Source of the DNA: an uncultured Chloroflexia bacterium
Lineage (GTDB): Bacteria > Chloroflexota > Anaerolineae > Anaerolineales > UBA4823
NCBI GenBank assembly: GCA_963842455.1
Contig: CAWJHE010000006.1
Coordinates: forward strand, 357,624-421,623
Length of the DNA stretch: 64,000 nucleotides
Direction of reading: 5' to 3'
A model generated the notes under the pieces. The model saw only the letters and a program-made list of their open reading frames with translations, searched no databases and had not been told where the DNA came from. The position numbers and the translations under genes were made by a program. Below are positions 1 through 18,710 of this stretch, one piece after another (the stretch's first letter is position 1; every line of letters starts with the position of its first letter).

Positions 1-906
1 AATGCTCTCCAGGTAGGAACGCAGATTGATCGCCAGGTCTGCCAGGTTTTCGGAAAGGGCTTGCGCCGAATCGGATAGAGGCGCCTGGGAAGGATCGATG
101 CGCGCCAGGTGCGATAAAGCCTGCACAACCTGACCGAACAGGTCGCTCACCGGTGGGCTTTCTGGGTTGCCTTCATCCAGGATGAGCAGCGCTTCCTGGG
201 AGAGCGAAGCCAGGTTCTCAGCGTTGGCCAGGCGGTTGCGCTCCTCGCGCAGCTGCTCTTCCTCATCCGGCTTAAGCTGGGTAGATTCGATTTCATTAAT
301 CTGGTAACTGAGCATGTCACTGCGTCGGGCGGCGTCTTGTTCTGCTTCCCGGATCCTGTGCAATTCCTTCTGCACCTGCTGCATGCGCTGGTAAGCCTTT
401 CGGTAGGCGTTCAACTGAGCTTCCAGGCCGAGCTCCGGATCGGTGATGGCATAGCGATCCAACAATCCCAGGTGCTGGTTGACTCGCAGCAGCGATAGGT
501 GCTCAGATTGCCCGTGCAGATCGACCAAAAATTCACCAAGCTCCTTGAGTAAGGAAACGCTGACGCTGCGCCCATTGATGCGGGCGACATTCCTGCCGGT
601 CAGACGAATTTCGCGCCCGAGGGTCAGGGAATTCTTATCCTCTAGTAGATCCTCACGCTCCAGGATGGCCAGGATTTGCTCTCGGGAAGTCGCGGGGATT
701 TTGAAAACAGCCTCGATGCTGGCGCGTTCAGCGCCGGCGCGCACCTGCACCGATTCGGCGCGTCCGCCTAAAACCGTCTCCACCGCGTCGATGATGATCG
801 ATTTTCCCGCGCCGGTCTCACCGGTGAAGGTAGTCAAACCAGAACCCAATTCCAATTCCAGGTTTTCGATAATGGCGAAGTTTTCGATGCGCAGCTCAAG
901 TAACAT
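1..906 (-). CDS. recN: DNA repair protein RecN, N-terminal ~300 codons (3' end lies outside the window)
   Basis: Own minus-strand translation from ATG 906-904: MLLELRIENFAIIENLELELGSGLTTFTGETGAGKSIIIDAVETVLGGRAE... (Walker A GETGAGKS). The frame is open to position 1. It is not in the ORF track because there is no stop codon in the window. Confidence 0.85.
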   Translation of the reverse strand, partial: MLLELRIENFAIIENLELELGSGLTTFTGETGAGKSIIIDAVETVLGGRAESVQVRAGAERASIEAVFKIPATSREQILAILEREDLLEDKNSLTLGREIRLTGRNVARINGRSVSVSLLKELGEFLVDLHGQSEHLSLLRVNQHLGLLDRYAITDPELGLEAQLNAYRKAYQRMQQVQKELHRIREAEQDAARRSDMLSYQINEIESTQLKPDEEEQLREERNRLANAENLASLSQEALLILDEGNPESPPVSDLFGQVVQALSHLARIDPSQAPLSDSAQALSENLADLAINLRSYLESI

Positions 907-1430
907 TACTTAATTTGGATGCCTTTCAGGCGATAGTAAATGGTGGATGTGATCGTGAACAGGTACAGACCTTGCCAGATCAAGCGCCAAAGCACGCTGA
1001 GAAAGCTGGCGCCCGCGACCATGTAGTACAACAATTGCAGCACCATGGGCAGCGCTCCCAGCACGGCAGCCAGGGCGGCAATCTGGAACAGGCGCTTGCC
1101 CCGGCGGCGTTTGGTGATCCAGCGGATGGCTTCGGCAATACCCACTCCGGCAATCGGCGCCAGAAAAATGGTGAAAAAGCCCAGGCTGGGGATCAGGCGG
1201 CTGCCTATATAGGAAAGGATCAGGATGGTAAAAAAGGTCAGCGGATAATCGTACCAGTAAGCGGTCTCAAATATTTTCTGCTGGCGGTTCATGCATTCTT
1301 TGCAACTATAACCCGTAGGGGTCAGTACGGCGCATTTGGGGCAGATAAGCTTTTCGCAAGTTTTACAGCGTAAGCTGGTTTCGACTGTTGGGTGGTTGGC
1401 GCAATAAAGGGTGGGTGGTGTGTCGCTCAT
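906..1430 (-). CDS. B-box-type zinc-finger membrane protein (hypothetical)
   Basis: 174-aa ORF with an N-terminal Cys/His cluster (CANHPTVETSLRCKTCEKLICPKCAVLTPTGYSCKEC) followed by about 4 hydrophobic helices. ATGA overlap with nadK and TAATG overlap with recN. Confidence 0.6.
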   Translation of the reverse strand: MSDTPPTLYCANHPTVETSLRCKTCEKLICPKCAVLTPTGYSCKECMNRQQKIFETAYWYDYPLTFFTILILSYIGSRLIPSLGFFTIFLAPIAGVGIAEAIRWITKRRRGKRLFQIAALAAVLGALPMVLQLLYYMVAGASFLSVLWRLIWQGLYLFTITSTIYYRLKGIQIK

Positions 1431-2299
1431 CGAAAATTTCCTGTGGATGGGTTTTGACTCATATGAGGGGTAAGGTTACGATAAAAATATCCGGGATCTT
1501 GGAAACGCAGGAATTTGGCGGTATGCTCGCTGGCAGATACCTCGACCCGGTCGCCATCAGCCAGGCCGATCGGGACCTGACCATCGGGAGAGAGCACCGC
1601 CTGGTGATCGGTTTGCACGGTGATATTCACCGAAGAACCTTCCGGTAAAACAATCGCCCGGTCCACCGATAGATGGGGAGCAACCGCCACCAGGAGGATA
1701 TTGCGCAGCTCTGGCGGCAGGATCGGACCACCGGCAGCCAGGGCATAGGCCGTGGAGCCGGTCGCTGTTGAAGCGATCAAGCCATCGGCAACATACGTGG
1801 TCAGGTGTCTGCCGTCCAGGTGGACGCTCAGATGCACCGGTCGCACAATATGACCGCGTGATACCACAATCTCATTCAAAACATGCCAGACTCCCAGGCG
1901 TTCGCCGGTGCGCCATTGTTCGGCGCGCAGCATCATGCGTTTCTCGAGCCAATACTCGCCCTCTAAAAGCTGGGGAAGTACTTCCCGCCATTGATCCTGG
2001 CGGATTTCCATCAGAAATCCAAACCGTCCCATATTGATCCCCAGGATGGGGATGCCTAGAGGACCGCATAAATGCCCGGCGCGCAGCATGGTGCCGTCTC
2101 CACCCAAGGAAATGAACAGATCGAATTCGCCTTCTTTCACCCGGCGGCGTAAGGCTTCATCTGAGAGCGAGCCGTGGTGAGTTGAAAAGCCATGTTCCTC
2201 GAGCAGGGCGGCGATTTTTTCCGCTTCCTGGAAACCCTCTTTAATCTGCGGGTGAGCAGCAACGACGATAGAGTGAAATGAGCTTGTTTTATCTGGCAT
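1427..2299 (-). CDS. nadK: NAD+ kinase
   Basis: 290-aa ORF with the GGDGTMLRA motif and NAD kinase-like sequence throughout. Confidence 0.9.
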   Translation of the reverse strand: MPDKTSSFHSIVVAAHPQIKEGFQEAEKIAALLEEHGFSTHHGSLSDEALRRRVKEGEFDLFISLGGDGTMLRAGHLCGPLGIPILGINMGRFGFLMEIRQDQWREVLPQLLEGEYWLEKRMMLRAEQWRTGERLGVWHVLNEIVVSRGHIVRPVHLSVHLDGRHLTTYVADGLIASTATGSTAYALAAGGPILPPELRNILLVAVAPHLSVDRAIVLPEGSSVNITVQTDHQAVLSPDGQVPIGLADGDRVEVSASEHTAKFLRFQDPGYFYRNLTPHMSQNPSTGNFR

Positions 2300-2314
2300 A
2301 ACTGTCCAATTATA

Positions 2315-2827
2315 TTACAGAAGTTTCTGATCGCAGATGTTGCGATAACCGCACCCGCCGCAGCGCTGGCTGGATTCATGCGAGCGAGCAATGTTTTTGC
2401 GACGCTCTTTGCTGTGCAGCTCTTCCAGGAGATCCATGACCAGGCTTTCAAGCTGGGGGGTGAAGTCGATGGCAAAAGTGTGCGTGGGATAGTGCAAAAT
2501 ACCGTAGGCGGGTCTTTTGCCGTAGTGGCGCTGCACCAGCAGGCAATAGGCTGCCAGCTGGTAAATATGGGCATCGTAAGGCGCTGAGCTGACCCGGTTG
2601 GATTTGACTTCGACAGGGATGATCTGCCCGCCGTGTTCCACCAGGTAATCCGGGCGGCCCACCAGGCCAAGCTCTGCATCGTATAACGGCTGCTCAACAG
2701 CACCCCACTTGGATGTGTCGCTGGTGATAATCCTGCCAGCTGGCAAGCCCAAAGATTGGCGCTGACGGCGTGCTTGCCACAGGATAACCAGGGCGATCAG
2801 GATGAGCAGGGCAGCCAGGTAGAGCAT
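2315..2827 (-). CDS. Cas4/RecB-like PD-(D/E)XK nuclease, C-terminal part, with an N-terminal TM helix
   Basis: Motifs RPDYLV, IPVEVKS and YQLAAY, plus C-terminal CGGCGYRNIC. Hydrophobic N-terminus MLYLAALLILIALVILW. Confidence 0.6.
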   Translation of the reverse strand: MLYLAALLILIALVILWQARRQRQSLGLPAGRIITSDTSKWGAVEQPLYDAELGLVGRPDYLVEHGGQIIPVEVKSNRVSSAPYDAHIYQLAAYCLLVQRHYGKRPAYGILHYPTHTFAIDFTPQLESLVMDLLEELHSKERRKNIARSHESSQRCGGCGYRNICDQKLL

Positions 2828-2848
2828 GAGGATTTTAGCCTGCCTTTT

Positions 2849-3085
2849 TTAGATGGCCTGGGAGGTGAAGTAAATGGTGATCAGGATGATGGCCAGCCCA
2901 AGCAAAACAAAAGCCAGGATGGACAGGCAACCGCTTTGCATAGCGGCGCGGCCATGCTGGTAGTGGAACTCGCTGCCCTCGACCATAGCAGCCAGGTTTT
3001 CCGAGGGCTCGCCGCGTTTTTGATACCACCAGGCGCGCTGGCAGTAAAGATAGGTCCCGATTTCGGATGCCCGGATGGTGCGCAT
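2849..3085 (-). CDS. Cas4-like N-terminal segment fused to a TM helix, in frame with the downstream nuclease ORF across one TAA
   Basis: ASEIGTYLYCQRAWWY..GSEFHYQHG matches the N-terminal Cys / G..H segment of Cas4-family nucleases. Followed by LSILAFVLLGLAIILITIYF. Confidence 0.5.
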   Translation of the reverse strand: MRTIRASEIGTYLYCQRAWWYQKRGEPSENLAAMVEGSEFHYQHGRAAMQSGCLSILAFVLLGLAIILITIYFTSQAI

Positions 3086-3096
3086 AGGTTATCTGC

Positions 3097-3723
3097 TTAC
3101 AGTCTTTCTTCGAGCTGCTTCAGGCTCTTTTCCAGTTGTTCCTGGCGCAGGCTGATGGTCAGATCGCCACGCGTGCGCTCGGTGACGCCGCGTACCATAT
3201 CGGTCAGGCGCCTCAAACCATCCGTGATGGCGTCCGGGTAGTCCATGGTGATCAGCACGGCGTAGATATCGTCCATGTAGCTTAGCATGCGTTCGGCTTC
3301 CTTGGAATGCCCGTGGCGCAGGATATCCAGGCAGCGGCGGCGCAGCTCACCAGCAGCTTCTGCCAGGCCGCGCAGGTAGGTGGCATGTTCCAGCGCTAAT
3401 TGCTCCGGATCAGGCAGGGTGTCGTCCAGCACCAGAGAATAGACAATATTGGCTTCGGCAAATTCCTTGAGGGCGTCCTGGGTATAACCGGTATAGTAAA
3501 GATCCGGGTATTCAGCCAGCTCGGTGTGCAAGGTCGTTACCAGGGATTTGGCTTGTGCAAGGTTTTCCAGGGCGAGATCGCGTTCTTCGCGGTGCACGGC
3601 GCGGATAGCATTGGCGCAATAGCGGATCAAGGTGCGGGTTTGGGAAAGGGCGCGTTCGCGCGCCGCGGTGCGGGCGTCAAAAGTGAGGCGGATTCGATCG
3701 GCAATTTCTTCGATATGATGCAT
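3097..3723 (-). CDS. translin-family protein
   Basis: ORF 3097-3840 trimmed to MHHIEEIADRI (ATG 3723). The C-terminal half (YLRGLAEAAGELRRRCLDILRHG..MDDIYAVLITMDYPDAIT..LRRLTDMVRGVTE) resembles the translin/TRAX fold. Confidence 0.55.
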   Translation of the reverse strand: MHHIEEIADRIRLTFDARTAARERALSQTRTLIRYCANAIRAVHREERDLALENLAQAKSLVTTLHTELAEYPDLYYTGYTQDALKEFAEANIVYSLVLDDTLPDPEQLALEHATYLRGLAEAAGELRRRCLDILRHGHSKEAERMLSYMDDIYAVLITMDYPDAITDGLRRLTDMVRGVTERTRGDLTISLRQEQLEKSLKQLEERL

Positions 3724-3730
3724 GGTTTTC

Positions 3731-4057
3731 CTATTCTGGGTTGGGTGGAGTGGGTGGGCGAAAGAGGTGCTCTGCCAGGGTGGTGTCGCCTGGCGCCTTG
3801 ATTTCGCCGAAAGCTGCCTCGTACCTGGCCAGATTTTCACTCAGGGCGCGCTGGAAGAGCTTGGCGCTGAGCGGCGACATGACGATGCGCGAGCTTACCC
3901 GGGCCTGGTTGGGTCCGGGGAGAATGTGCGCAAAGTCAAAAACCAGCTCAGAGACTGAGTGGGCAATGCGCACCAGGTTGACATATTCAACCGGCAAATC
4001 CGGGGGAATTTCCATTGGAGGCAGTTGCCCGGGGGGGCGAGGGGGTGTTTGGGTCAT
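3731..4057 (-). CDS. DUF3467-like small protein
   Basis: 108-aa ORF. The core YVNLVRIAHSVSELVFDFAHILPG resembles the DUF3467 family. Confidence 0.5.
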   Translation of the reverse strand: MTQTPPRPPGQLPPMEIPPDLPVEYVNLVRIAHSVSELVFDFAHILPGPNQARVSSRIVMSPLSAKLFQRALSENLARYEAAFGEIKAPGDTTLAEHLFRPPTPPNPE

Positions 4058-4075
4058 AGACTCTCCATGATTTTA

Positions 4076-4172
4076 CTTTTTTGATCTCTCGCAGAGCTCG
4101 AAGCATCGCTGTCATTGCGAACAATTTTTGTGAAGCAATCTGATCTCTCGCAGAGCCGCAGAGAGCGCAGAG
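4076..4172 (+). repeat. Dispersed intergenic repeat, copy A (two CGCAGAG heads plus the cattgcgaac..gaagcaatc module)
   Basis: ttttttgatctctcgcagagc at 4077-4097, gtcattgcgaacaatttttgtgaagcaatc at 4111-4140, and tgatctctcgcagagccgcagagagcgcagag at 4141-4172. Same motifs as at 6.9, 13.7, 14.6, 16.5 and 55.2 kb. Confidence 0.8.
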
Positions 4173-4187
4173 TTATTCTGTTTTGAA

Positions 4188-4227
4188 AACAAGGGCGACT
4201 ACGCCATCTTGTGCAGTCGCCCTTGTT
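4188..4227 (-). terminator. Probable intrinsic terminator of ssb
   Basis: 13-bp perfect stem aacaagggcgact / agtcgcccttgtt. On the minus strand the stem runs into UUGUUUUC, 19 nt after the ssb stop. Confidence 0.55.
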
Positions 4228-4245
4228 GGGTTGGTCAATCCCAGT

Positions 4246-4665
4246 CTAGAAGGGGATATCGTCCGAATCGGGACCGGACGAAGCGTGAGAGAACTCGTCT
4301 CCGCCGCCCATGTCCTCGCCGCGCGAGGATAGGAAGCGCACGGTTGAGGCGCTGACTTCAAAGGACGAGCCGCTGGTGCCATCCTGGCGGGTGTAGACGC
4401 GCGGCCCGCCTGTGGCGTTATCCACAACCAGACGCCCTTCTACCAGCACTTTGCTGCCTTTCTTCAGATATTGGTTGCAGACTTCAGCCATGCGTCCCCA
4501 TACCGAAACGCGGAACCAAATCGTCTCCTTGACCTGTTCGCCATTGGAGCCGGTGTATTGGCGGCTGGTGGCAACCGAAAAATTGGTCACGGCTTGCCCG
4601 CTAGGCGAATAACGCATTTCGGGGTCGCGGCCCAGGTTGCCTGCAATAATAATGGTGTGAAACAT
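4246..4665 (-). CDS. ssb: single-stranded DNA-binding protein
   Basis: 139-aa ORF with an OB-fold N-terminus (NLGRDPEMRY..TIWFRVSVWG) and an acidic tail ending DDIPF. Confidence 0.9.
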   Translation of the reverse strand: MFHTIIIAGNLGRDPEMRYSPSGQAVTNFSVATSRQYTGSNGEQVKETIWFRVSVWGRMAEVCNQYLKKGSKVLVEGRLVVDNATGGPRVYTRQDGTSGSSFEVSASTVRFLSSRGEDMGGGDEFSHASSGPDSDDIPF

Positions 4666-4837
4666 AATGGGTCTCCTTTTCTGGTTCCAGTGAGCTGCCA
4701 GTTTTTTTTACCGGACGAACGCCGTCCGGGGCAGGTTAAGATAGACTCACTGAGCTTATCTGGATTCTACTCAAGTTTGTAAGATGTGACAAGTCAATCC
4801 GGGGGAATCTATTGTACTTTGCAAAGAAGGCTCCAGA

Positions 4838-5131
4838 ATGTAGAACAAACTGTTAGTTTGTTATGTAGCACAAACTTTAGTTTGTTCCGCCAGCTAGCGA
4901 TTCGTTGCGACCGGTCGAACGGGTAATTTGCCTCCGGCAAATCCGCAAACTGAAGTTTGCGTTACATCCATGCGTAGTCAGGGCAGTATGTAGAACAAAC
5001 TGTTAGTTTGTTATGTAGCACAAACTTTAGTTTGTTCCGCCAGCTTTCGCTTTCGATCCGTTGCAACTGACGGAACGGGTAATTTGCCTCCGGCAAATCC
5101 GCAAACTGACAGTTTGCGTTACATCCATGCG
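4838..5131. repeat. Two tandem ~150-bp units rich in CAAACT..AGTTTG palindromes
   Basis: The 58-nt block 4838-4895 is identical to 4988-5045. The block 4917-4974 matches 5073-5131 apart from one extra c. Each unit contains aacaaactgttagtttgtt, cacaaactttagtttgt, atttgcctccggcaaat and gcaaactga(c)agtttgc. Confidence 0.9.
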
Positions 5132-5133
5132 CG

Positions 5134-5171
5134 GCCAGGCCCGTCGCTGGATAATCAACGACGGGCCTGGC
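5134..5171. other. 13-bp perfect stem-loop downstream of rnj (possible terminator, no clear U-tract)
   Basis: gccaggcccgtcg (5134-5146) pairs with cgacgggcctggc (5159-5171). Confidence 0.4.
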
Positions 5172-5213
5172 GGTTTGGGTTTACTGGTGCTTACAGGAAA
5201 ACGAGTGGTTCGT

Positions 5214-6869
5214 TTACACCTTAATAAAGTTAGGCAGAATCACCGGACGAGATTGGGTCTTGCGGTAGAAAAAGGTCTGCAGCCGTTCTTGCATAGCCAC
5301 CAAGGGATCTTGCGAACCCTTGCGGCCTTTTTGGCGGTAGCTGCGCCGGATTTCTTCCAGAGCGGCTTCCATCAGCTCATCGGCCTCATCCATGTGGGAG
5401 AAGCCGCGCGTGATGATATAAGGCTTACCAGCCAGCTTGCGCTGCTTGTTGATGGGGATATTGACCACCACCACGCCATCCTGCGCCAGTTGCCCCCGGT
5501 CAGCCAGGACGTGCTTGCCGATTTCGCCCACCTGGGGACCATCCACATACACATCCCCAGCTACGACGTTCTCATCCAGCCAGGCTTTATCGCCATCGCT
5601 GGACCATACTGCGCCGTTATGCAGGATGAAGGCATTCTCGGGCGCTAAACCGTTTTCTTGCGCCAGGCGGGTGTGCAAATGCAGGTGGCGCAACTCACCG
5701 TGTACCGGGATCAGGAAACGCGGCCGCACGGCTTCCAGCATCAGGCGCATGTCCTCGCGACTGCCGTGCCCGGAGACATGTACTGTCGCCAGCGGACCGT
5801 AGACCACGTCCGCGCCACGTGCAAACAGGCTGTTGAGCATGCGTCCCACGTCTTCTTCGTTGCCGGGGATGGTGCCACCGGAAACGATGATCTTATCGCC
5901 AGCCTTAACCTGGATTTGTTTGTGTTCGCCGTTCGCCATGCGGGTCAGCGCCGAACGCGGTTCGCCTTGCGAGCCAGTCGCCAGGATGATGAGCTGTTCG
6001 TCTTTCACCTTGTTGTTCAGGTCCACCAGCACGCCGGCGGGAACCTGCATCATGCCCAGGTCTCTGGCCAGCTCAACGTTGGAGAGCAGGCTGCGACCTG
6101 CCAGGGCTACCTTGCGCCCGTGCTTGTGCGCCAGGAAGATAATCTCTTGCAGGCGCGCCAGCAGGGAGGAGAAGGTGGCGATGATGATGCGCTGCCCTTT
6201 GGCTTTGCTGATCAATTCATCCAGGGTGTCGGCGACCAGCTGCTCGGTGGGTGTGCGTCCGGGACGGTCGGCATTGGTGCTGTCGCCCAGCATGGCCAGC
6301 ACACCTTTGGGGGTCAGCTGGCGCAGGCGCGCCAGGTCGGTGGTGCGCCCGCCGGAGGGGGTCTCATCCAGCTTATAGTCGCCGGTATGCACCACCGCGC
6401 CCAGGGGGGTGTCGATCACCAGCCCCAGGGAGCCTGGGATCGAATGCGCCACACCGAAGGGGTTGATGCGGAAAGGTCCCAGCTGGAAGCTGCTCTGGTC
6501 ATCAATCACCTGCAAATTGGCGTATTCACGCACGCCCATCTCATCCAGTTTCAATCCGAGCATACCCAGGGTCAGGGCGGTGCCGTAGACCGGCAGCCCG
6601 CCGGGGATATGCAATTGCTTCAGCAGGTACGGCAACCCGCCGATATGATCCTGGTGCCCGTGGGTTAGCACGATGCCGCGCAGGGTGTTCTGGTTTTGCA
6701 GGATGTAATCGAACTGGGGTAAAACCAGGTCGATGCCGTACAAATCGCTCTCGGGGAACATGACCCCGCAATCGACAATCATTTGGTTACGGCCATACTC
6801 TAAAACGGTCATATTCTTACCGATCTCCCCCAGGCCGCCCAGGGGAATAATTTTCAAATGCTTACTCAT
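5214..6869 (-). CDS. rnj: ribonuclease J
   Basis: 551-aa ORF. Metallo-beta-lactamase motif THGHQDHIGG, beta-CASP-like middle region, RNase J length and N-terminus (KIIPLGGLGEIGKNM). Confidence 0.9.
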   Translation of the reverse strand: MSKHLKIIPLGGLGEIGKNMTVLEYGRNQMIVDCGVMFPESDLYGIDLVLPQFDYILQNQNTLRGIVLTHGHQDHIGGLPYLLKQLHIPGGLPVYGTALTLGMLGLKLDEMGVREYANLQVIDDQSSFQLGPFRINPFGVAHSIPGSLGLVIDTPLGAVVHTGDYKLDETPSGGRTTDLARLRQLTPKGVLAMLGDSTNADRPGRTPTEQLVADTLDELISKAKGQRIIIATFSSLLARLQEIIFLAHKHGRKVALAGRSLLSNVELARDLGMMQVPAGVLVDLNNKVKDEQLIILATGSQGEPRSALTRMANGEHKQIQVKAGDKIIVSGGTIPGNEEDVGRMLNSLFARGADVVYGPLATVHVSGHGSREDMRLMLEAVRPRFLIPVHGELRHLHLHTRLAQENGLAPENAFILHNGAVWSSDGDKAWLDENVVAGDVYVDGPQVGEIGKHVLADRGQLAQDGVVVVNIPINKQRKLAGKPYIITRGFSHMDEADELMEAALEEIRRSYRQKGRKGSQDPLVAMQERLQTFFYRKTQSRPVILPNFIKV

Positions 6870-6893
6870 AAGTTGTGTTACAAATTTCCTTTA

Positions 6894-7005
6894 CTGATTA
6901 ATCTCTCGCAAAGCCGCTAAGGCCGCAAAGTTCTTCTTTAGAAATAATCTATCCCTCAGATCACTTTGCATGGCCGTCGCAGGGCGATGCGTTAATTTAC
7001 TATCT
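6894..7005 (+). repeat. Dispersed intergenic repeat, copy B
   Basis: ttaatctctcgcaaagccgctaaggccgcaaag followed by the tail gatcactttgcatggccgtcgcagggcgatgcg. A partial inverted head (ctttgcgaga) lies at 7146-7155. Confidence 0.7.
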
Positions 7006-7399
7006 AAACCTGGCGACGTTTGTCCTTTGCAGCAATCATACTGGCTGGCCAGGAAAATGGTTTGATCTAATGCCGGTGTGAGCCGGCGCACAACACCAAA
7101 ACATCACCCGCCGGATGCGGGAGCGTCTTTCTGAAGATTTCTGAAAACTTTGCGAGACAGGGAGGTCGAGCGGGGAAGTCAGAGGCTTGCAGTGAGGCGT
7201 GATGTGTGTTAGTGAGGATATGATAACACAAAATAGATAAGAATGGTAGGAGATTATTTTATTAATTATTCTTTATAAAAATACAGCAATTATTTAAGAT
7301 TAGTTAGTGTAAACTATTTTCTGTAAAATTATCCGCCCAAAAGTGATAGGTCTGGTGTATCCTTTGAGAAGCGACCAACTTCAGAAAAGGAGTGACACC

Positions 7400-8581
7400 A
7401 TGACCTACCAAGGCGATTTTACCTTACCAATCGAGTTGCTGGAACAAATTGCTGTCAGCGGTTTCGACAAACTTCCGGAGTTGATCCGGATTGTCGTCAA
7501 CGCTGCCATGCAAGCTGAACGTCAGCAGTATCTCGGAGCAGCACCTTACCAACGTACACCTGAACGTTATGATCAGGCTAACGGCTATAAGCCGAAGACG
7601 GTCAAGACCCGCTTGGGAGAGATCACTTTTGATATACCCCAAGTGCGTCAGGGTAGTTTCTATCCTGAAGCACTCGAGAAAGGCCTGCGCAGTGAACGAG
7701 CTCTCACCATGACACTGGCCGAGATGTACATCCAGGGTGTTTCTACTCGCAAGGTGACTGCGATCCTCGAACGACTGTGCGGCACATCGGTGTCATCTAC
7801 TCAGGTGAGCAAGGCAATTGCTTTGCTGGACGAGACCTTGGAAGCCTGGCGTCGCCGGCCATTGAGCGAGTGTCCTTATCTCTTTCTTGATGCCCGCTAT
7901 GAGAAAGTGCGTCAGGATGGCCAGGTGCGCGATGCAGCTGTTTTGATGGCCTGTGGCATCGACTTGAAGGGCAAAAGACAGCTCCTAGGGGTCTCGGTAT
8001 CACTTGGCGAGCATGAAATCCACTGGCGAACCTTCTTAGAAAGCCTGGTGACCAGGGGATTACGGGGTGTCCAGCTCATCATCAGTGATAGTCACGCAGG
8101 ATTGAAGGCTGCGCGCCTGGCTGTTTTTGGTGGAGCACCCTGGCAGCGTTGCCAATTCCACCTGCAGCAAAACGCCAGCGCTTATGTGCCTCGGCGGGCT
8201 ATGCTCACTGAGGTGGCTGCCGATATCCGGGCTATCTTCAATGCTCCCGATCGCACTTCGGCCGAAACTTTCCTGGCAAAAGCCATCCAAAAGTACCAAA
8301 AAAGTGCTTCAAAACTGGCCGCCTGGTTGGAAGGAAACATCCCAGAAGGGCTAACCGTCTTTGCCTTCCCGGTTGCTCACCGGCGTTTGATCCGCACCAC
8401 AAACGGTTTGGAGCGAGTGAGCCGTGAAGTTCATCGCCGCACGCGGGTGGCGGGGATCTTTCCTAACGAAGCAGCTTGCTTGCGTCTGGTCAGTGCGATC
8501 TTGATGGAGATTGATGACGCCTGGCAGGCTGGGAAGGTGTACCTGACTTTTGAGAGAGAAGATGAGATGCCGCAGTCGTAG
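7400..8581 (+). CDS. IS256-family (mutator-type) transposase
   Basis: ORF 7343-8581. The ATG at 7400 is preceded by aaaggag. Typical IS256 sequence: GYKPKTVKTRLGEITFDIPQVR, YLFLDARYEKVR, LIISDSHAGL, RTTNGLERVSREV. Confidence 0.9.
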   Translation: MTYQGDFTLPIELLEQIAVSGFDKLPELIRIVVNAAMQAERQQYLGAAPYQRTPERYDQANGYKPKTVKTRLGEITFDIPQVRQGSFYPEALEKGLRSERALTMTLAEMYIQGVSTRKVTAILERLCGTSVSSTQVSKAIALLDETLEAWRRRPLSECPYLFLDARYEKVRQDGQVRDAAVLMACGIDLKGKRQLLGVSVSLGEHEIHWRTFLESLVTRGLRGVQLIISDSHAGLKAARLAVFGGAPWQRCQFHLQQNASAYVPRRAMLTEVAADIRAIFNAPDRTSAETFLAKAIQKYQKSASKLAAWLEGNIPEGLTVFAFPVAHRRLIRTTNGLERVSREVHRRTRVAGIFPNEAACLRLVSAILMEIDDAWQAGKVYLTFEREDEMPQS

Positions 8582-8586
8582 TAGTA

Positions 8587-8640
8587 GTTGTGGAAAAGTG
8601 GGCAGGGTTCTTCTGTCCACTTTTCCACAACTGGTTTTCA
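8587..8640 (+). terminator. Intrinsic terminator after the transposase gene
   Basis: 15-bp perfect stem gttgtggaaaagtgg / ccacttttccacaac (8587-8631), followed by tggttttcaagttttt. Confidence 0.7.
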
Positions 8641-8700
8641 AGTTTTTAATGTGCTTTACAAGCTTCCGCAGGAAGCCAGACTACTTTTACAGAAAAATAC

Positions 8701-9567
8701 TTGCACAATCAATGGGAAATTCCAAAATACAAATACAATAATGAAAATCGAACAATAGGAACTGAGATTGTTGGTGAATACATTCAATTTCCGTTGATAT
8801 TAGCATGGTCTGTCACTATCCACAAAAGTCAGGGTTTGACTTTTGACGATCTGATAATAGACCTTGAAAGAGGGGCTTTTACTTATGGTCAAGTGTATGT
8901 CGCACTAAGCCGAGCTAAATCTTTAGAAGGAATATTTCTTCAAAAGCCTATAAGTTCTTTTGATATTAAGGTTGATATTCAGATTAGTCGTTTTTTTGGA
9001 AAAATTAAATTTCTAGGCAAGAACCAAATTAAGGATTTAATTAATACTTGGGAGTTAAAAAATGTAACTCAAGAAGCCGGATTTAATAAAAATGAGTCAA
9101 CTTTTCCTGTAGAAAATATTCCCAATCAAATTGGGAATTTGTCACATCAGGATGCCAGTGACCATTCTAAACTACCTGATGGTAAATCCACTCATTTGTT
9201 GAGTAATCACAATGAAACTTTGCCCAAGACCCTAAGAGAACCAAGTTTTCAAAATTATTTTAATAATAGCGCCCCAAAATTAAGAAGAGTATGTAGATAT
9301 TCTGAAAAAACTCGTATTTTCCTAGCTATTGGCATAGCACTTGTGGCATTATTTTTTTACCAATTTTTGGCGTCAACTGTTTTTGTTAAAGAAAGAATAA
9401 ATCCAACACAACAGCCTTCAGGGGTGATTGTTATAACACCTACAATTGTTAGAATTAAACCTTCTCAGAATCGCCATCACATCTACCTCAACGGAAAAAT
9501 TCAATTCCACACCCACTCCCAAACCAGAAAATACTTCTATTCAAGGTTGCCTATATTCTGTATCTAG
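8701..9567 (+). pseudogene. 5'-truncated Pif1/RecD-like helicase remnant (C-terminal motifs only) continuing into a linker and TM segment
   Basis: [38 protein letters not shown] is the C-terminal motif V/VI region of an SF1 helicase. The ATPase N-terminal ~350 aa are absent and the ORF starts 2 nt after the IS right end. A hydrophobic stretch [23 protein letters not shown] occurs later. Confidence 0.6.
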
Positions 9568-13585: not shown

Positions 13586-13695
13586 TTTTTTGTCCTAATA
13601 AGGCGGTTGACATATCCGATTGTTGGAAACCCTATCTAAATCATGATTGAGTCGATAAGCTCCGAAGGTAGATACTGAGACGAATATTACCACTT

Positions 13696-13912
13696 CTTTT
13701 TTGATCTCTCGCAAAGCTCGCCAAGTACGCAAAGCTTTCTTTTTTTGAAAATTCATCATAATGATCATTTTGCATAGCCCTCGAAGTGTAATGAGCCATT
13801 TTGATCTCTCGCAGAGACGCAGAGATCGCAGAGCTGCTGAGGCCGCGTAGCTTTTCTTTGGTGATTGTTTATTTCATAATTCATTTTAATGGTTCAAGAG
13901 GCGCGATTAGCT
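13696..13912 (+). repeat. Dispersed intergenic repeat, copies C1 and C2 (tandem)
   Basis: C1: ttttttgatctctcgcaaagctcgccaagtacgcaaag..gatcattttgcatagccctcgaagtgtaatgagc. C2: ttttgatctctcgcagagacgcagagatcgcagag..ttcattttaatggttcaagaggcgcgattagc. Confidence 0.8.
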
Positions 13913-16395: not shown

Positions 16396-16487
16396 CCTGA
16401 CTTATCCTTGGAATAGCGAACCCCATAAGCAGATGTTGGCCTCTCGATATTACCACATTTAGCAAGCTGGTCGGCTGAACGATAAGG

Positions 16488-16575
16488 TTTTTTTGATCTC
16501 TCGCAGAGCCGCAAAGTGCGCAGAGTTTTTTTGATTTCTCGCAAAGCTTGCCCTCCAGTGTGCAGACGTAGCTTA
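16488..16575 (+). repeat. Dispersed intergenic repeat, copy E (two heads)
   Basis: tttttttgatctctcgcagagccgcaaagtgcgcagag followed by tttttttgatttctcgcaaagcttgccctccagtgtgcagacg. Confidence 0.8.
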
Positions 16576-16608: not shown

Positions 16609-17424
16609 TCATGGTTGAGTGGCCCTCGCAGTTCCATCCTGTTCGCTCAACCCGTCTGCGCTTTCGATCAGGTCTTTTAGCCGTTGGATGAAGCGCGCCG
16701 CCGGGGCGCCGTCGATGATGTCGTGGTCGAAACTGATGGTGACGCTCATAAATTCACGCACTTCGATGCGATGTTCCACAACCCCTGGTTTTTCTGCGAT
16801 GCCGCCCAGGGTGAGCTGCAGGGTATGGTTTGGCACCGGGATGCCCCAACCGCTGCCCGTTCCAAACATGCCAATGGAGGTCAGCAGCACTGTGCCGTAG
16901 TATTCTTTGAGCATTTTGGGGTTTTTGAACAGGGCTTTCAAGAAGAGCCTTCTGACAAAGCCAGGTAACTTGATAAACCAATCGATGAAATTTGATTCCC
17001 GGCTGTCTGAGTGCCCCTTTTGAAAGGCACGGATCTCCTCATGCAGCTCACGAATACTTTTGGTGTTCACGCCACGCATGATGTGCGGCCGGATGGTCTT
17101 TTTGCTATCTACCTCTACTTCGAAGAGCATATTGACATCCACTTCATCGAAAATAACCAGCTGGTTGCGCCAGTTCCGGTAGGCATGCATGTGGCGGTTT
17201 TGCTGGATTGCTTTACCAAGACAGGCTAAGATGAAGGCTGAGAATGACAGGGCCTGTCCGCTTTGAGCTTTTTGCTGGTGCAAAATCTGCCGGGCGCGGG
17301 TCACATCGAACTCCACCAAGCCATGGATGGTATGTTTCTGAATGCCAAGCTGACCGCCATCGGCCATCAGCAGTCTCGCTCTGGGGTATGGCAAAACGGT
17401 GTGGGAGTCAGGTGAAGTGTCCAT
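16609..17424 (-). CDS. 2-oxoacid dehydrogenase acyltransferase (E2 catalytic domain only) family protein
   Basis: C-terminal catalytic motif ISFDHDIIDGAPAARF (DHxxxDG). No lipoyl or E3-binding domains. ATG 17424 lies 1 nt after the upstream GT stop. Confidence 0.75.
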   Translation of the reverse strand: MDTSPDSHTVLPYPRARLLMADGGQLGIQKHTIHGLVEFDVTRARQILHQQKAQSGQALSFSAFILACLGKAIQQNRHMHAYRNWRNQLVIFDEVDVNMLFEVEVDSKKTIRPHIMRGVNTKSIRELHEEIRAFQKGHSDSRESNFIDWFIKLPGFVRRLFLKALFKNPKMLKEYYGTVLLTSIGMFGTGSGWGIPVPNHTLQLTLGGIAEKPGVVEHRIEVREFMSVTISFDHDIIDGAPAARFIQRLKDLIESADGLSEQDGTARATQP

Positions 17425-17425
17425 G

Positions 17426-18710
17426 TTATTTCTCTCTTTTACTCGCTGCGGGATGGCCAAAATAAGTTTCGACGATTTTCACGGCATTGGCAGCGCCATC
17501 TTCAGCACGGATGCTTTCACCGGTTGACCTGGCGCGTTGCCGGATGCCCGGGTCGTTGACTGCCAGGTGGATGGCCTTCGCCAGGCTTTCTGCACTCAAC
17601 TTCTTCTGCGGTATGGGTGCGGGACCCAGTCCCAAGGCCTTGATGCGGGCGCCCCAAAAATATTGATCGAAAACAAAGGGCGTGATCACAGATGGTATGC
17701 CAGCGCGCAAGCCTTCTGCGGTTGTGCCTGCGCCGCCATGGTGAACAACCGCAGCCATGCGTGGAAACAGCCAGCTGTGGGGCGCAGAGTCGAGCACGAT
17801 AACATGATCGGGTAAGTCTGCTGTTCGCAGGCCACCCCAGCCGGTCAGTAGTAGACCACGCTGACCGCTCATGGAGAGCGCTTCAAGGATCATACTGGTT
17901 AAATGTTCCGGATTGTTGCCAGCCATGCTGCCAAATCCAAAGTAGACGGGTGGGTTGCCGGCATCCAGGAAGGTCAGCAATTCTGGCGCAGGCTGCCAGC
18001 TGGTGTGGTCATCCAGAAAAGAGGTAACCGCTGATATGCAGGCTCTCCGGCCAGTCAGGCGGGTGCGGGATGATCGTGGGGCTGTAGGCGCTCAGCATGG
18101 GTGTGGATTTCAAATTGTGTAAGAGCTGGGTGAAGGAAGTTTTCTTTAATCCGAGCTGCTGCCTGAACTGGTTGACAAAGGGCTGGTACCACAGCCAGAT
18201 GACATTGAGCATGGCCACGCCGGACAGAGAATTGTGCCAGCCGCCCAAATCTTTCTGGACCGGCCAGGAGGGAGCCGGGAAAGCCCTGGTCGGCAGCAGG
18301 GGCGTGGGTTCGATCTGGATCATGGGCATGTTCAGCCCTTCTGACAATGCTTGACCGAAGGCGCTGAAGACACCCAGGCAGATGAGCGCGTCACTATCCA
18401 GGCAGGCCTGGTGAAGATCGTTAACCATGGTCATTACGATGGGGGCGATCATGCTGCGCATGGCGCGGATGGATTTGATCGGATTGGCGCCGCCCGTTTG
18501 CATGAAGCTTCGCCCGGTATCGCTAGCCATGATCTGCTGGACATCCCCGCGCAGCGGATAAAATTCCAGGCCGTGTTGCTCAACAAAATCCCTGAAGTTT
18601 TCAGGCGCCGCCAGGCGGATTTGATAACCTGCTTGTTGCAGCCCTTTGCCCAGGACGATGCACGGTTGGATATCACCCCGCGAGCCTGCTGCAAATATGG
18701 TTATTTTCAT
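17426..18710 (-). pseudogene. GT1-family (MGT / UDP-glycosyltransferase-like) glycosyltransferase, split by a 1-nt insertion in an A4/T4 run at 18017-18020
   Basis: N-terminal half 18009-18710 (MKITIFAAGSRGDIQPCIVLGKGL). C-terminal half 17426-17980 (PPVYFGFGSM..HHGGAGTTAEGLRAGIPSVITPFVFDQ). Removing one T gives GYLFLDDHTSWQPAPELLTFLDAGNPPVY. Confidence 0.8.

What the first reader, a model, noticed from the sequence alone, without database searches (positions are those of the whole stretch)
2315..3085. Cas4/RecB-like nuclease divided by a single in-frame TAA and carrying a two-helix membrane hairpin
ORF 2849-3085 encodes the N-terminal Cas4-type segment (ASEIGTYLYCQRAWWY...GSEFHYQHG) and then a hydrophobic helix (LSILAFVLLGLAIILITIYF). 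ORF 2315-2827 opens with a second hydrophobic helix (MLYLAALLILIALVILW). It then has the PD-(D/E)XK core (RPDYLV, IPVEVKS, YQLAAY) and the C-terminal CGGCGYRNIC. The four Cys residues that coordinate the Fe-S cluster in Cas4-family nucleases are therefore split 1+3 between two ORFs. On the minus strand the ORFs are separated by TAA (2851-2849), then 21 nt, then ATG (2827-2825), so they share one frame. Read-through would give a ~256-aa protein with a TM hairpin inserted between the N-terminal helix and the nuclease core. No cas genes or CRISPR array are nearby. Possible explanations are a two-subunit membrane-tethered nuclease, stop-codon read-through, a nonsense mutation, or a base-call error.
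Basis: partly seen in the sequence, partly recalled or inferred. Interest (0 to 1): 0.6.

Follow-up and report, generated by a model that had tools for sequence, protein, structure and literature searches.

The report
Conserved two-gene, membrane-anchored split Cas4 nuclease
What looked like one Cas4-type DNA nuclease gene broken by a stop codon is really two separate, strongly conserved genes found throughout Chloroflexota bacteria, each encoding half of the enzyme plus one membrane-spanning helix, so the active nuclease is probably assembled from two pieces on the inner face of the cell membrane.

Summary
On the minus strand, a 78-aa ORF (3085-2849) carries the Cas4 N-terminal segment plus a C-terminal TM helix. 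After TAA and 21 nt, a 170-aa ORF (2827-2315) carries an N-terminal TM helix plus the Cas4 core. The stop is not a mutation, a sequencing error or a read-through site. The same two-gene arrangement occurs in 163 related loci. Gaps run from -13 to over 2,000 nt, all three stop codons are used, and only 33% of pairs are in frame, which is the chance level. Sometimes a whole gene lies between the halves. Both halves are under strong constraint. The N-half keeps the first Fe-S cysteine and the motif-I histidine. The C-half keeps D, ExK, QxxxY and CxxCx5C. Charge distribution places both soluble parts in the cytoplasm, and both helices carry small-residue heptads. Rare fused relatives exist, and one arose by a 17-nt deletion. 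No CRISPR array or cas gene is nearby, and the family is absent from viral contigs. The pair sits in a conserved SSB...NAD kinase-RecN neighbourhood. The most likely reading is an obligate heteromeric, membrane-tethered solo-Cas4 nuclease. Its biological role (DNA repair or defence) is only inferred. I found no description of the split or the membrane anchoring in the literature.

The parts
2849..3085 (-). N-half gene (ORF A, 78 aa): cytoplasmic Cas4 N-terminal segment followed by a C-terminal tail-anchor TM helix
   Evidence: TIGR00372 cas4 positions 2-47, E 1e-5. A family of 581 proteins, the top 120 all 75-82 aa. Found upstream of the C-half in 82/84 and 81/87 loci. R5, S7, C15, R17, W19, G37 and H41 are invariant in 79 loci.
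3041..3043 (-). Cys15 of the N-half: predicted first ligand of the [4Fe-4S] cluster
   Evidence: 100% conserved. In the fused-family profile it aligns with the N-terminal Cys of type I-C Cas4 8d3l (FQFCKRQW).
2954..2977 (-). G37-x3-H41-x2-H44 (GSEFHYQH): RecB/Cas4 motif I with the predicted catalytic-metal histidine
   Evidence: G37 and H41 are 100% conserved and H44 98%. G-x3-H aligns with EGQHLH of Cas4 8d3l.
2870..2929 (-). TM helix of the N-half (residues 53-72); only 6 residues (FTSQAI, 2852-2869) follow it
   Evidence: KD 2.97. Across 79 loci a median of 4 residues follow the helix, with K+R 2.65 before versus 0.46 after. Positions 58 and 65 are 100% Gly/Ala/Ser.
2828..2851 (-). TAA stop of the N-half (2851-2849) plus the 21-nt intergenic spacer; an ordinary gene boundary, not a recoding site
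   Evidence: Gap and frame vary freely in relatives. No promoter- or terminator-like site here.
2315..2827 (-). C-half gene (ORF B, 170 aa): N-terminal TM helix, basic juxtamembrane linker, Cas4/RecB nuclease core
   Evidence: TIGR00372 72 bits, above the cutoff of 65. PF01930 and PF12705. 3115 and 1332 relatives. AF2 pLDDT 79.6, best PDB matches Cas4 8d3l and 7mi4.
2771..2827 (-). TM helix of the C-half (residues 1-19), starting at the initiator Met, followed by RRQRQ
   Evidence: KD 2.51. No residues precede the helix, and 3.68 K+R lie in the next 15 aa. Positions 5, 12 and 19 are 86/100/97% Gly/Ala/Ser and W17 is 87%. The model has a helix at 2-25 with pLDDT about 91.
2603..2653 (-). Motifs II and III of the PD-(D/E)XK core (P59-D60 ... 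E73-V-K75)
   Evidence: D60, E73 and K75 are invariant in the 24-sequence alignment. They align with GRAD...IEIK of SSO0001 and the equivalent motifs of 8d3l and 4r5q.
2546..2560 (-). QxxxY motif (Q90-L-A-A-Y94)
   Evidence: Q90 and Y94 are invariant.
2333..2362 (-). C156-x2-C159-x5-C165: the three C-terminal [4Fe-4S] ligands
   Evidence: All three are invariant. They align with the C-terminal Cys triad of Cas4 structures. This region has low pLDDT in cluster-free models.
3097..3723 (-). Translin-family gene (PRK14562-like) ending 11 nt upstream of the N-half; conserved neighbour
   Evidence: NCBIfam NF011160, 275 bits (cutoff 291). Pfam Translin E 6e-5. Present upstream in 41/62 loci.
3731..4057 (-). 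DUF3467 gene, conserved neighbour
   Evidence: PF11950 E 5e-19; 41/62 loci.
4246..4665 (-). SSB gene, conserved neighbour
   Evidence: PF00436 in relatives; 40/62 loci.
1427..2299 (-). NAD kinase gene immediately downstream of the C-half
   Evidence: PF01513 and PF20143 in relatives; 76/80 loci.
906..1430 (-). B-box zinc-finger multi-TM protein, conserved between NAD kinase and RecN
   Evidence: PF00643 E 1.6e-5; 61/65 loci.
1..905 (-). RecN (N-terminal ~300 aa; runs off the window start)
   Evidence: TIGR00634 recN E 1e-25 for the first 80 aa; 61/65 loci.

Best explanation
These are two separate, co-oriented and probably co-transcribed genes. Each encodes one half of a single Cas4-family (RecB-type PD-(D/E)XK, [4Fe-4S]) nuclease domain, and the break falls exactly where a transmembrane hairpin is inserted.

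The 78-aa N-half is a tail-anchored protein (N-in, C-out). Its cytoplasmic part supplies the first cluster cysteine (C15) and the motif-I G-x3-H histidine (H41). The 170-aa C-half begins directly with a TM helix (N-out, C-in). Its cytoplasmic part supplies motif II (D60), motif III (E73-x-K75), QxxxY and the CxxCx5C triad.

Shown by the data: both halves exist, are conserved, stay adjacent and are often translationally coupled, and the split is ancestral and vertically inherited in Chloroflexota.

Inferred: the two TM helices pair antiparallel in the membrane, and the cytoplasmic pieces reassemble into one nuclease. Its Fe-S cluster and catalytic metal site would each be built from both chains, so activity would need the heterodimer and would be confined to the inner face of the membrane.

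Inferred more weakly: it is a housekeeping, CRISPR-independent solo-Cas4 that processes DNA ends in repair or recombination, given its fixed neighbourhood with SSB and NAD kinase-RecN.
For: - **Split conserved.** The top 120 hits to the read-through query are all about 170 aa, at 62-100% identity. About 130 of 150 representatives at 50% clustering are C-half type, and no soluble single-chain Cas4 appears among them. The N-half family has 581 members of 75-82 aa.
- **Two genes, not one.** The N-half lies upstream of the C-half in 82/84 genome loci and 81/87 metagenome loci. Gaps run from -13 to over 2,000 nt. Frames are 33/27/22 and 20/10/51. All three stop codons are used, and many pairs overlap as ATGA or by 1 nt. 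A ~210-aa gene lies between the halves in about 12 loci.
- **Constraint on both halves.** N-half invariants are R5, S7, C15, R17, W19, G37 and H41. C-half invariants are D60, E73, K75, Q90, Y94, C156, C159 and C165. Pairwise identities of the two halves correlate at r = 0.69.
- **Composite active site.** The fused-family profile aligns YC..W and G...H to type I-C Cas4 residues 7-62, and the core to residues 102-202. TIGR00372 coverage is 2-47 for the N-half and 60-178 for the C-half.
- **Topology.** Positive-inside statistics and the near absence of any extramembrane tail or head fit cytoplasmic soluble parts. Both helices carry small-residue heptads.
- **Fusion is compatible.** A natural allele (L085/P0274) fuses the halves through a 17-nt deletion over the ATGA overlap. 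It models as a Cas4 fold with a TM hairpin (pLDDT 83.5, pTM 0.79; best PDB hits Cas4 8d3l and 7mi4).
- **Solo and housekeeping.** No CRISPR array or cas genes are nearby. There are 0 relatives in 2.9 million viral contigs. Synteny holds with NAD kinase (76/80), RecN (61/65) and SSB (40/62). Solo-Cas4 was already reported as monophyletic in many Chloroflexi and as vertically inherited (PMC5704561).
Against: - Nothing here shows expression of the 78-aa protein, membrane insertion, physical association of the halves, Fe-S binding or nuclease activity.
- The heterodimer itself could not be modelled, because only a single-chain fused homologue was allowed.
- The Cys-bearing C-terminus has low confidence in both models.
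- In M. mazei Solo-Cas4 (PMC12501428), and according to the highlights of the L. interrogans Cas4 paper (PMC8610317), loss of the cluster did not abolish nuclease activity. The C-half might therefore keep some activity without the N-half's cysteine.
- In about 25 loci the halves are 0.5-2.2 kb apart, and in one locus (L150) no N-half was found within 4.9 kb upstream. Tight coupling is therefore not universal.
- The proposed repair role rests only on gene neighbourhood. NAD kinase-RecN is (from general knowledge) a widespread pair in its own right, so adjacency may be historical rather than functional.
Confidence: 0.7

Rival explanations
1. This is a single gene whose TAA is read through or recoded, giving a 256-aa protein with an intact TM hairpin.
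For: In this window the two ORFs share a frame and are only 21 nt apart. Natural fused relatives exist, so a single chain can fold.
Against: Only 53 of 163 related pairs are in frame, which is the chance level. Many pairs overlap out of frame (ATGA or 1 nt). Gaps reach over 2 kb, and some loci have a gene in between. All three stop codons are used. The C-half always has its own start codon aligned with M1 (ATG in 75 of 82 loci). The search with the read-through query found no fused form among the close relatives listed.
Confidence: 0.02
2. The stop is a nonsense mutation, a pseudogene feature or a base-call error in this assembly.
For: A single stop codon in an otherwise continuous frame looks like an error when seen in isolation.
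Against: The same split occurs in 163 loci from independent genomes and metagenomes. The exact N-half and C-half sequences are on record in several public sources. Both halves show strong purifying constraint and conserved lengths.
Confidence: 0.01
3. The C-half is a self-sufficient membrane-anchored nuclease. The N-half is a separate small membrane protein that regulates it (inhibitor, chaperone or anchor) and does not complete its fold.
For: The C-half alone passes the cas4 model cutoff and folds confidently except for its C-terminus. Some Cas4 enzymes remain active without the cluster (PMC12501428). The halves can lie kilobases apart.
Against: The N-half's invariant residues are exactly the Cas4 N-terminal cluster Cys and the motif-I G-x3-H. 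These residues only make sense inside the assembled domain. Fused relatives and the re-fusion allele place the N-half in the canonical position of the fold. Without C15 the CxxCx5C triad would lack a fourth ligand.
Confidence: 0.12
4. The molecular architecture is the same, but the role is defence or surveillance of DNA crossing the membrane (phage injection, conjugation, transformation) rather than chromosomal repair.
For: Membrane tethering puts the nuclease where foreign DNA enters. Cas4-family enzymes do take part in defence, for example CRISPR adaptation and ACE1 with Argonaute (structural hits; PMC12094033). Solo-Cas4 has been suggested to have 'uncharacterized defense or repair functions' (PMC5704561).
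Against: The locus is a fixed, vertically inherited housekeeping neighbourhood (SSB, RNase J, NAD kinase, RecN) and not a variable defence island. No relatives occur on viral contigs. No partner defence genes are conserved next to it.
Confidence: 0.25

Closest known systems
Solo-Cas4 (Cas4-family nucleases encoded outside CRISPR-cas loci; Hudaiberdiev et al. 2017, PMC5704561; M. mazei Solo-Cas4, PMC12501428)
   Same: It belongs to the Cas4 family (COG1468/PF01930/TIGR00372), has no cas or CRISPR context, and is vertically inherited. The 2017 survey already noted a monophyletic solo-Cas4 clade in 'many Chloroflexi'. The four-Cys signature and the RecB-type motifs are the same.
   Different: Described solo-Cas4 proteins are single soluble polypeptides; M. 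mazei Solo-Cas4 forms a ~318-kDa soluble oligomer. Here the domain is encoded by two genes, each half has a TM helix, and the cluster and metal sites are predicted to span two chains. The 2017 paper does not contain the words transmembrane or split.
CRISPR-associated Cas4 (type I-C Cas4 in Cas4-Cas1-Cas2, PDB 8d3l; G. sulfurreducens Cas4/Cas1 fusion, 7mi4; SSO0001 4ic1; Pcal_0546 4r5q)
   Same: These are the best structural and sequence matches for both the fused homologue and the window's own C-half. They share the catalytic motifs and the 1+3 cysteine arrangement.
   Different: There is no Cas1/Cas2 partner, no CRISPR array and no PAM-processing context. About 80 residues of TM hairpin are inserted between model positions ~47 and ~60. 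The protein is split into two polypeptides and is membrane-bound.
[quoted passage not shown]
   Same: It is another Cas4-family nuclease recruited outside CRISPR adaptation, and it is a structural hit (E about 1e-5).
   Different: ACE1 is a soluble single chain that works with a long-A pAgo. No Argonaute gene is linked here.
Fe-S-containing RecB-family nuclease domains of end-resection machines (AddB, AdnAB, Dna2, and MGME1 without a cluster)
   Same: They share the PD-(D/E)XK fold and motif set and appear as weaker structural hits. The RecN/SSB neighbourhood here fits a DNA-end-processing role like theirs.
   Different: Those domains are fused to helicase/translocase modules and are soluble. 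This enzyme is minimal, has no helicase, is membrane-anchored and is split.
Naturally split (fission) enzymes encoded by two adjacent, translationally coupled genes
   Same: Both halves are conserved, co-oriented and often overlap as ATGA. An occasional re-fusion allele exists.
   Different: Here the fission point lies in the outer loop of a TM hairpin. Each half keeps one helix as its membrane anchor and probable dimerisation element. I found no precedent for this in the Cas4/RecB family in the searchable literature.

Membership tests
Cas4 family (PF01930 / TIGR00372 / COG1468) | Profile-HMM match above the curated cutoff | tested here: met
   The C-half alone scores 72 bits against a cutoff of 65, and the concatenation scores 93.6 bits. 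The N-half alone scores 25.5 bits (E 1e-5), below the cutoff but covering model positions 2-47. PF01930 and PF12705 are above their gathering scores for the C-half.
Cas4 family (PF01930 / TIGR00372 / COG1468) | RecB-type catalytic motifs: motif I His, motif II Asp, motif III ExK, QxxxY | tested here: met
   H41 (G-x3-H) lies in the N-half; D60, E73-x-K75 and Q90-x3-Y94 lie in the C-half. All are invariant and align to the Cas4 structures 8d3l, 4r5q and 4ic1. The motifs are spread over two polypeptides.
Cas4 family (PF01930 / TIGR00372 / COG1468) | Four cysteines (one N-terminal plus C-x2-C-x5-C at the C-terminus) for a [4Fe-4S] cluster | tested here: met
   C15 (N-half) and C156, C159, C165 (C-half) are invariant. 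Actual cluster binding is not testable here.
Cas4 family (PF01930 / TIGR00372 / COG1468) | Cas4 three-dimensional fold | tested here: met
   AF2 models of the C-half (pLDDT 79.6) and of a fused homologue (pLDDT 83.5) have type I-C Cas4 and Cas4/Cas1 as their best PDB matches, with E 1e-6 to 3e-5 and probability 1.00.
Cas4 family (PF01930 / TIGR00372 / COG1468) | Single soluble polypeptide carrying the whole domain (the architecture of all characterised members) | tested here: not met
   There are two genes with a TM helix on each side of the break, conserved in 163 loci.
Cas4 family (PF01930 / TIGR00372 / COG1468) | Metal-dependent DNA nuclease activity | not testable with these tools
   This needs biochemistry on the co-expressed halves.
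CRISPR-associated Cas4 (adaptation module) | Encoded next to cas1/cas2 and a CRISPR array | tested here: not met
   No array in the 64-kb window. No cas-family match among the ORFs scanned out to about 22 kb or among the neighbours in relatives.
Solo-Cas4 (sensu Hudaiberdiev 2017) | Cas4-family gene outside cas loci and mobile elements, mainly vertically inherited | tested here: met
   Synteny is conserved across Anaerolineae species genomes. There are 0 hits in viral contigs. Hits are restricted to Chloroflexota-labelled records wherever a name is given.
Programmed stop-codon read-through / recoding | In-frame arrangement and stop context conserved among relatives | tested here: not met
   The frame relation is at the chance level (53/163 in frame). 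Spacing and stop codon both vary.
Pseudogene / sequencing artefact | The disruption is specific to this sequence, and the fragments evolve without constraint | tested here: not met
   The split is shared by 163 loci, and both fragments have invariant functional residues and fixed lengths.
Gene-fission heteromeric enzyme | Both halves conserved, adjacent, co-oriented and co-inherited | tested here: met
   The halves are adjacent in 82/84 and 81/87 loci. Overlapping start/stop codons are common. The mirror-tree correlation is r = 0.69.
Gene-fission heteromeric enzyme | Physical association of the two products into one active enzyme | not testable with these tools
   This is supported only indirectly: complementary motifs, small-residue heptads in both helices and a viable natural re-fusion.
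Tail-anchored membrane protein (N-half) | A single TM helix at the extreme C-terminus with a cytoplasmic N-terminal domain | tested here: met
   The helix starts at about residue 56 of 78, with a median of 4 residues after it. K+R is 2.65 before versus 0.46 after the helix. Actual insertion was not tested.

The most novel reading that the evidence does not exclude
This would be the first membrane-integral member of the Cas4/RecB nuclease family. It would be an obligate heterodimer in which a tail-anchored 78-aa subunit and a signal-anchored 170-aa subunit pair through their TM helices and jointly build both the [4Fe-4S] cluster (1+3 cysteines) and the catalytic metal site (His from one chain, Asp/Glu/Lys from the other). 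It would be conserved as a housekeeping gene pair across Chloroflexota and would act on DNA at the membrane together with the adjacent SSB/RecN repair genes.
Probability: 0.45. Interest if true: 0.7.

Novelty: new variant of a known kind. Interest (0 to 1): 0.55.

Why it matters
The function of solo-Cas4 nucleases is an open question. Here is a large, vertically inherited clade whose architecture says something concrete: the enzyme is held at the membrane and needs two gene products.

- **Biochemistry.** An inter-subunit Fe-S cluster and a composite active site would be a natural split-enzyme system, with activity gated by assembly.
- **Annotation.** Hundreds of public 78-aa 'hypothetical proteins' are in fact the missing N-terminal half of the neighbouring 'Cas4'. 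The 170-aa 'CRISPR-associated Cas4' entries in Chloroflexota are neither CRISPR-associated nor complete enzymes.
- **Evolution.** The locus documents stable gene fission inside a TM hairpin and an observable re-fusion by a 17-nt deletion.
- **Biology.** The fixed linkage to SSB, NAD kinase and RecN gives a testable lead for a membrane-proximal DNA repair or DNA-processing step in Chloroflexota.

Tried and rejected
1. The read-through translation could not be submitted to the exhaustive representative search because of its internal stop. ORF B was used instead.
2. I first took the fused proteins P0183 and P0274 to be the ancestral single-chain state, and rejected that.
   - P0183 is a singleton whose nearest relatives are split C-halves of Chloroflexia.
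   - P0274's closest 80 metagenome relatives are split.
   - Its own 90% cluster contains split alleles.
   - The fusion comes from a 17-nt deletion.
   - Whether the deeper fused forms (P0236, P0265, P0244, P0245) are ancestral remains open. Their contigs gave no taxonomy and no shared context.
3. The N-half profile alone found no Cas4 in PDB sequences. The link needed the fused-family profile.
4. My first regex-based classification of the metagenome loci produced some spurious N-half coordinates. I replaced it with an HMM-based count.
5. P0125, P0216, P0268 and P0160 look like fusions but contain frameshift garbage, or a junction to NAD kinase, and were discarded as assembly artefacts.
6. 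The second cysteine of ORF A (C53) was considered as a cluster ligand and rejected, because it alternates with Leu.
7. Rfam gave no hit in 1-9000. The promoter and terminator scan found nothing above chance and nothing between the halves.
8. The AFDB Foldseek library was unavailable, so UniProt taxonomy of structural neighbours could not be obtained.
9. Model coordinates were not exposed, so Cys-Cys and His-Asp distances could not be measured.
10. Literature searches for membrane, tail-anchored or split Cas4 found nothing relevant.
Full report
On the minus strand, ORF A (3085-2849, 78 aa) ends in TAA (2851-2849). A 21-nt spacer follows, and ORF B (2827-2315, 170 aa) begins with ATG in the same frame, so read-through would give 256 aa. 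ORF A contains RASEIGTYLYC15QRAWWY, G37SEFH41YQH44G and a hydrophobic stretch (residues 53-72), followed by only six more residues. ORF B begins directly with a hydrophobic stretch (residues 1-19) followed by RRQRQ. It then carries PD60YLV, IPVE73VK75, Q90LAAY94 and C156GGC159GYRNIC165.

The Cas4 assignment is statistically sound.
- In NCBIfam TIGR00372 (cas4), ORF A matches model positions 2-47 (E 1e-5). ORF B matches positions 60-178 at 72 bits, above the curated cutoff of 65. The concatenation scores 93.6 bits.
- ORF B also matches Pfam PF01930 and PF12705.
- One Cas4 domain is therefore interrupted between model positions ~47 and ~60 by two hydrophobic helices and a gene boundary.

**2. 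It is two genes, not a broken gene.**
- A search with the read-through sequence returned 3,115 relatives. The best 120 (62-100% identity) are all about 170 aa and cover only the C-terminal two-thirds of the query. A fused close relative would have outscored them, and none was listed.
- In the exhaustive 50%-clustered library, about 130 of the top 150 representatives are C-half type with an N-terminal TM helix. Five are fused, and none is an ordinary soluble Cas4.
- ORF A has its own family of 581 proteins. The top 120 are 75-82 aa, mostly annotated 'hypothetical'.
- In 84 genome loci, from 367 matching stretches in species-representative genomes, all labelled Anaerolineae or Chloroflexota, the N-half lies upstream of the C-half in 82. 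The two exceptions are cut by contig ends. The gap ranges from -4 (ATGA overlap) to 786 nt, frame relations are 33/27/22, stops are TGA 34, TAA 27 and TAG 21, and about 12 loci have a whole ~210-aa gene between the halves.
- A second, independent set of metagenome loci gave 81 split pairs, with gaps from -13 to 2,207 nt and many 1-nt or 4-nt overlaps.
- Pooled, 53 of 163 pairs are in frame, which is the chance expectation.
- Read-through, nonsense mutation and base-call error are therefore excluded. The shared frame in this window is a coincidence.

**3. Both halves are constrained, and each holds part of the active site.**
- Across 79 loci the N-half keeps R5, S7, C15, R17, W19, G37 and H41 at 100% and H44 at 98%. 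Its length stays at 77-83 aa in 78 of the 79 loci (one outlier of 97 aa). C53 alternates with Leu, so it is not a ligand.
- The C-half keeps D60, E73, K75, Q90, Y94, C156, C159 and C165 invariant in the 24-sequence family alignment.
- A profile of full-length fused relatives aligns to type I-C Cas4 (PDB 8d3l) in two blocks. The N-terminal block pairs ...YC..W...G...H with FQFCKRQW...EGQHLH, and the C-terminal block covers ExK, QxxxY and the Cys triad.
- The N-half thus supplies the first [4Fe-4S] cysteine and the motif-I histidine, and the C-half supplies everything else. Neither half has a complete cluster site or a complete metal site.
- Pairwise identities of the two halves across loci correlate at r = 0.69.

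**4. Membrane topology.**
- In the N-half family the best 19-residue hydrophobic window averages KD 2.58 and starts at about residue 56. A median of 4 residues follow it, and K+R average 2.65 in the 15 residues before versus 0.46 after.
- In the C-half family the helix starts at residue 1 with nothing before it, and 3.68 K+R lie in the next 15 residues.
- By the positive-inside rule, both soluble parts are cytoplasmic. The N-half is tail-anchored (N-in/C-out) and the C-half is N-out/C-in. This is exactly the topology of a hairpin cut in its outer loop.
- Both helices carry a heptad of small residues: N-half positions 58 and 65 are 100% Gly/Ala/Ser, and C-half positions 5, 12 and 19 are 86, 100 and 97%. 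The positions between them vary among hydrophobic residues. This pattern fits tight antiparallel helix packing (inference).

**5. Fused relatives and direction of change.**
- P0183 (286 aa) is a singleton whose nearest relatives are split C-halves from Roseiflexaceae and Chloroflexaceae. The split therefore also covers class Chloroflexia.
- P0274/P0515 (245-247 aa) sits in a 90%-identity cluster that also contains 174-aa members. Sister contigs with the same neighbours encode an 81-aa N-half overlapping a 174-aa C-half by ATGA. The fused allele differs by a 17-nt deletion that removes the overlap and restores the frame, plus a 6-nt deletion. It is therefore a secondary re-fusion.
- Its AlphaFold model has pLDDT 83.5 and pTM 0.79. 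It shows an N-terminal helix, a long helix running into TM1, a ~10-residue loop, TM2 and an alpha/beta core.
- The model's best PDB matches are Cas4 in Cas4-Cas1-Cas2 (8d3l, 7mi4; E 1e-6 to 1e-5), then ACE1, MGME1, Pcal_0546, AdnAB and AddAB.
- The window's own C-half models at pLDDT 79.6, with a confident N-terminal helix (2-25) and the same Cas4, MGME1 and Dna2 matches. The Cys-bearing tail is disordered in the cluster-free model.
- Deeper fused forms with 2 or about 4 TM helices exist (P0236, P0265, P0244, P0245; ~38% identity). They are singletons in unrelated contexts. Whether they represent the ancestral single-chain state is unresolved.

**6. Context.**
- The window contains no CRISPR-like array and no cas genes within about 22 kb. 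The family has no relatives in 2.9 million viral contigs.
- The window's gene order on the minus strand is RNase J, SSB, DUF3467, a translin-family gene, N-half, C-half, NAD kinase, a B-box zinc-finger membrane protein and RecN.
- NAD kinase follows the C-half in 76/80 loci. The B-box protein and RecN follow in 61/65. The SSB-DUF3467-translin block precedes in about 41/62.
- No promoter- or terminator-like site lies between the halves.
- The fused or split relatives in other sub-clades have different neighbours, so the repair neighbourhood is a feature of Anaerolineae rather than of the whole family.

**7. Mechanism proposed.**
- *Shown:* two conserved, adjacent and frequently overlapping genes encode complementary parts of one Cas4 domain, each with one TM helix.
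- *Inferred (about 0.7):* the helices pair in the membrane. The cytoplasmic parts reconstitute a Cas4 nuclease whose [4Fe-4S] cluster (C15 plus C156/C159/C165) and catalytic metal site (H41 plus D60/E73/K75) bridge the two chains. Activity would then depend on the heterodimer and be confined to the inner membrane face.
- *Inferred weakly (about 0.35):* the enzyme is a housekeeping DNA-end-processing nuclease working with SSB and RecN. A role against DNA entering through the membrane is the main functional alternative (about 0.25).

**8. Comparison with what is known.** The closest known entity is solo-Cas4. The 2017 phylogenomic survey noted a monophyletic solo-Cas4 clade in 'many Chloroflexi' and mainly vertical inheritance, but it contains no mention of transmembrane segments or a split. 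The only biochemically studied solo-Cas4 I found (M. mazei) is a soluble high-order oligomer. Literature searches for membrane-anchored, tail-anchored or split Cas4 found nothing. Public annotation calls the C-half 'CRISPR-associated exonuclease Cas4' and the N-half 'hypothetical protein'.

**9. Verdict.** This is a real, ordinary-looking gene boundary inside an unusual enzyme. It belongs to the Cas4 family by sequence, motifs and fold, but it fails the single-soluble-chain architecture. I class it as a new variant of a known kind. Interest is moderate (0.55): the finding is robust, widespread and apparently undescribed, and it gives a concrete handle on solo-Cas4 function. However, assembly, activity and biological role remain untested.

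Noticed in passing
window 4834-5144: A ~155-nt unit is tandemly duplicated (copies 4834-4987 and 4984-5144, 85-94% identical) in the SSB-RNase J intergenic region. It has no Rfam match, and its short ORF-like translations are probably spurious.
   Followed up: partly
window 4075-4097, 4134-4156, 13695-13717, 13795-13817, 16487-16509, 16525-16547: A dispersed 23-nt repeat (consensus TTTTTTGATCTCTCGCAGAGC) occurs as three pairs spaced 38-100 nt apart in different regions. Its meaning is unknown; it could be a regulatory or REP-like element.
   Followed up: no
window 7343-9567 and 16609-19684: A Mutator/IS256-type transposase (PF00872, E 2e-110) lies next to an ORF that matches only a UvrD-like helicase C-terminal fragment. 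Further on, several ORFs match only part of their Pfam domain (2-oxoacid_dh 148-228/232, Glyco_transf_28 N-terminus, N6_N4_Mtase 138-220/221). This suggests a zone of gene decay or rearrangement.
   Followed up: partly
L021 328-988, L026 4333-5000, L040 4340-5000, and others (about 12 Anaerolineae loci): A ~210-aa gene (MSVLNRIAYFQNRRDEVPNQELAKDLA...) with no Pfam or NCBIfam match is inserted between the N-half and C-half genes. Some metagenome loci also have 0.5-2.2 kb between the halves.
   Followed up: partly
window 3097-4057: A translin-family protein (PRK14562-like, misnamed 'haloacid dehalogenase superfamily' in NCBIfam; 275 bits against a cutoff of 291) and a DUF3467 protein form a conserved pair immediately upstream of the split Cas4 in about two-thirds of Anaerolineae loci. 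They may be functional partners.
   Followed up: partly
window 906-1430: A B-box zinc-finger domain fused to a multi-TM region is conserved between NAD kinase and RecN in 61/65 loci. This is an unusual bacterial architecture of unknown function.
   Followed up: no
L085 4130-4290 versus L167 2905-3075: Fused and split alleles coexist among near-identical strains. A 17-nt deletion across the ATGA stop/start overlap, plus a 6-nt deletion, re-fuses the two genes into one 245-aa ORF.
   Followed up: yes
L005 and L030 (both from bin CWP4-3.bin.157): One MAG carries two copies of the split pair (91% and 60% identical to the window's C-half). They are either paralogues or the bin is mixed.
   Followed up: no
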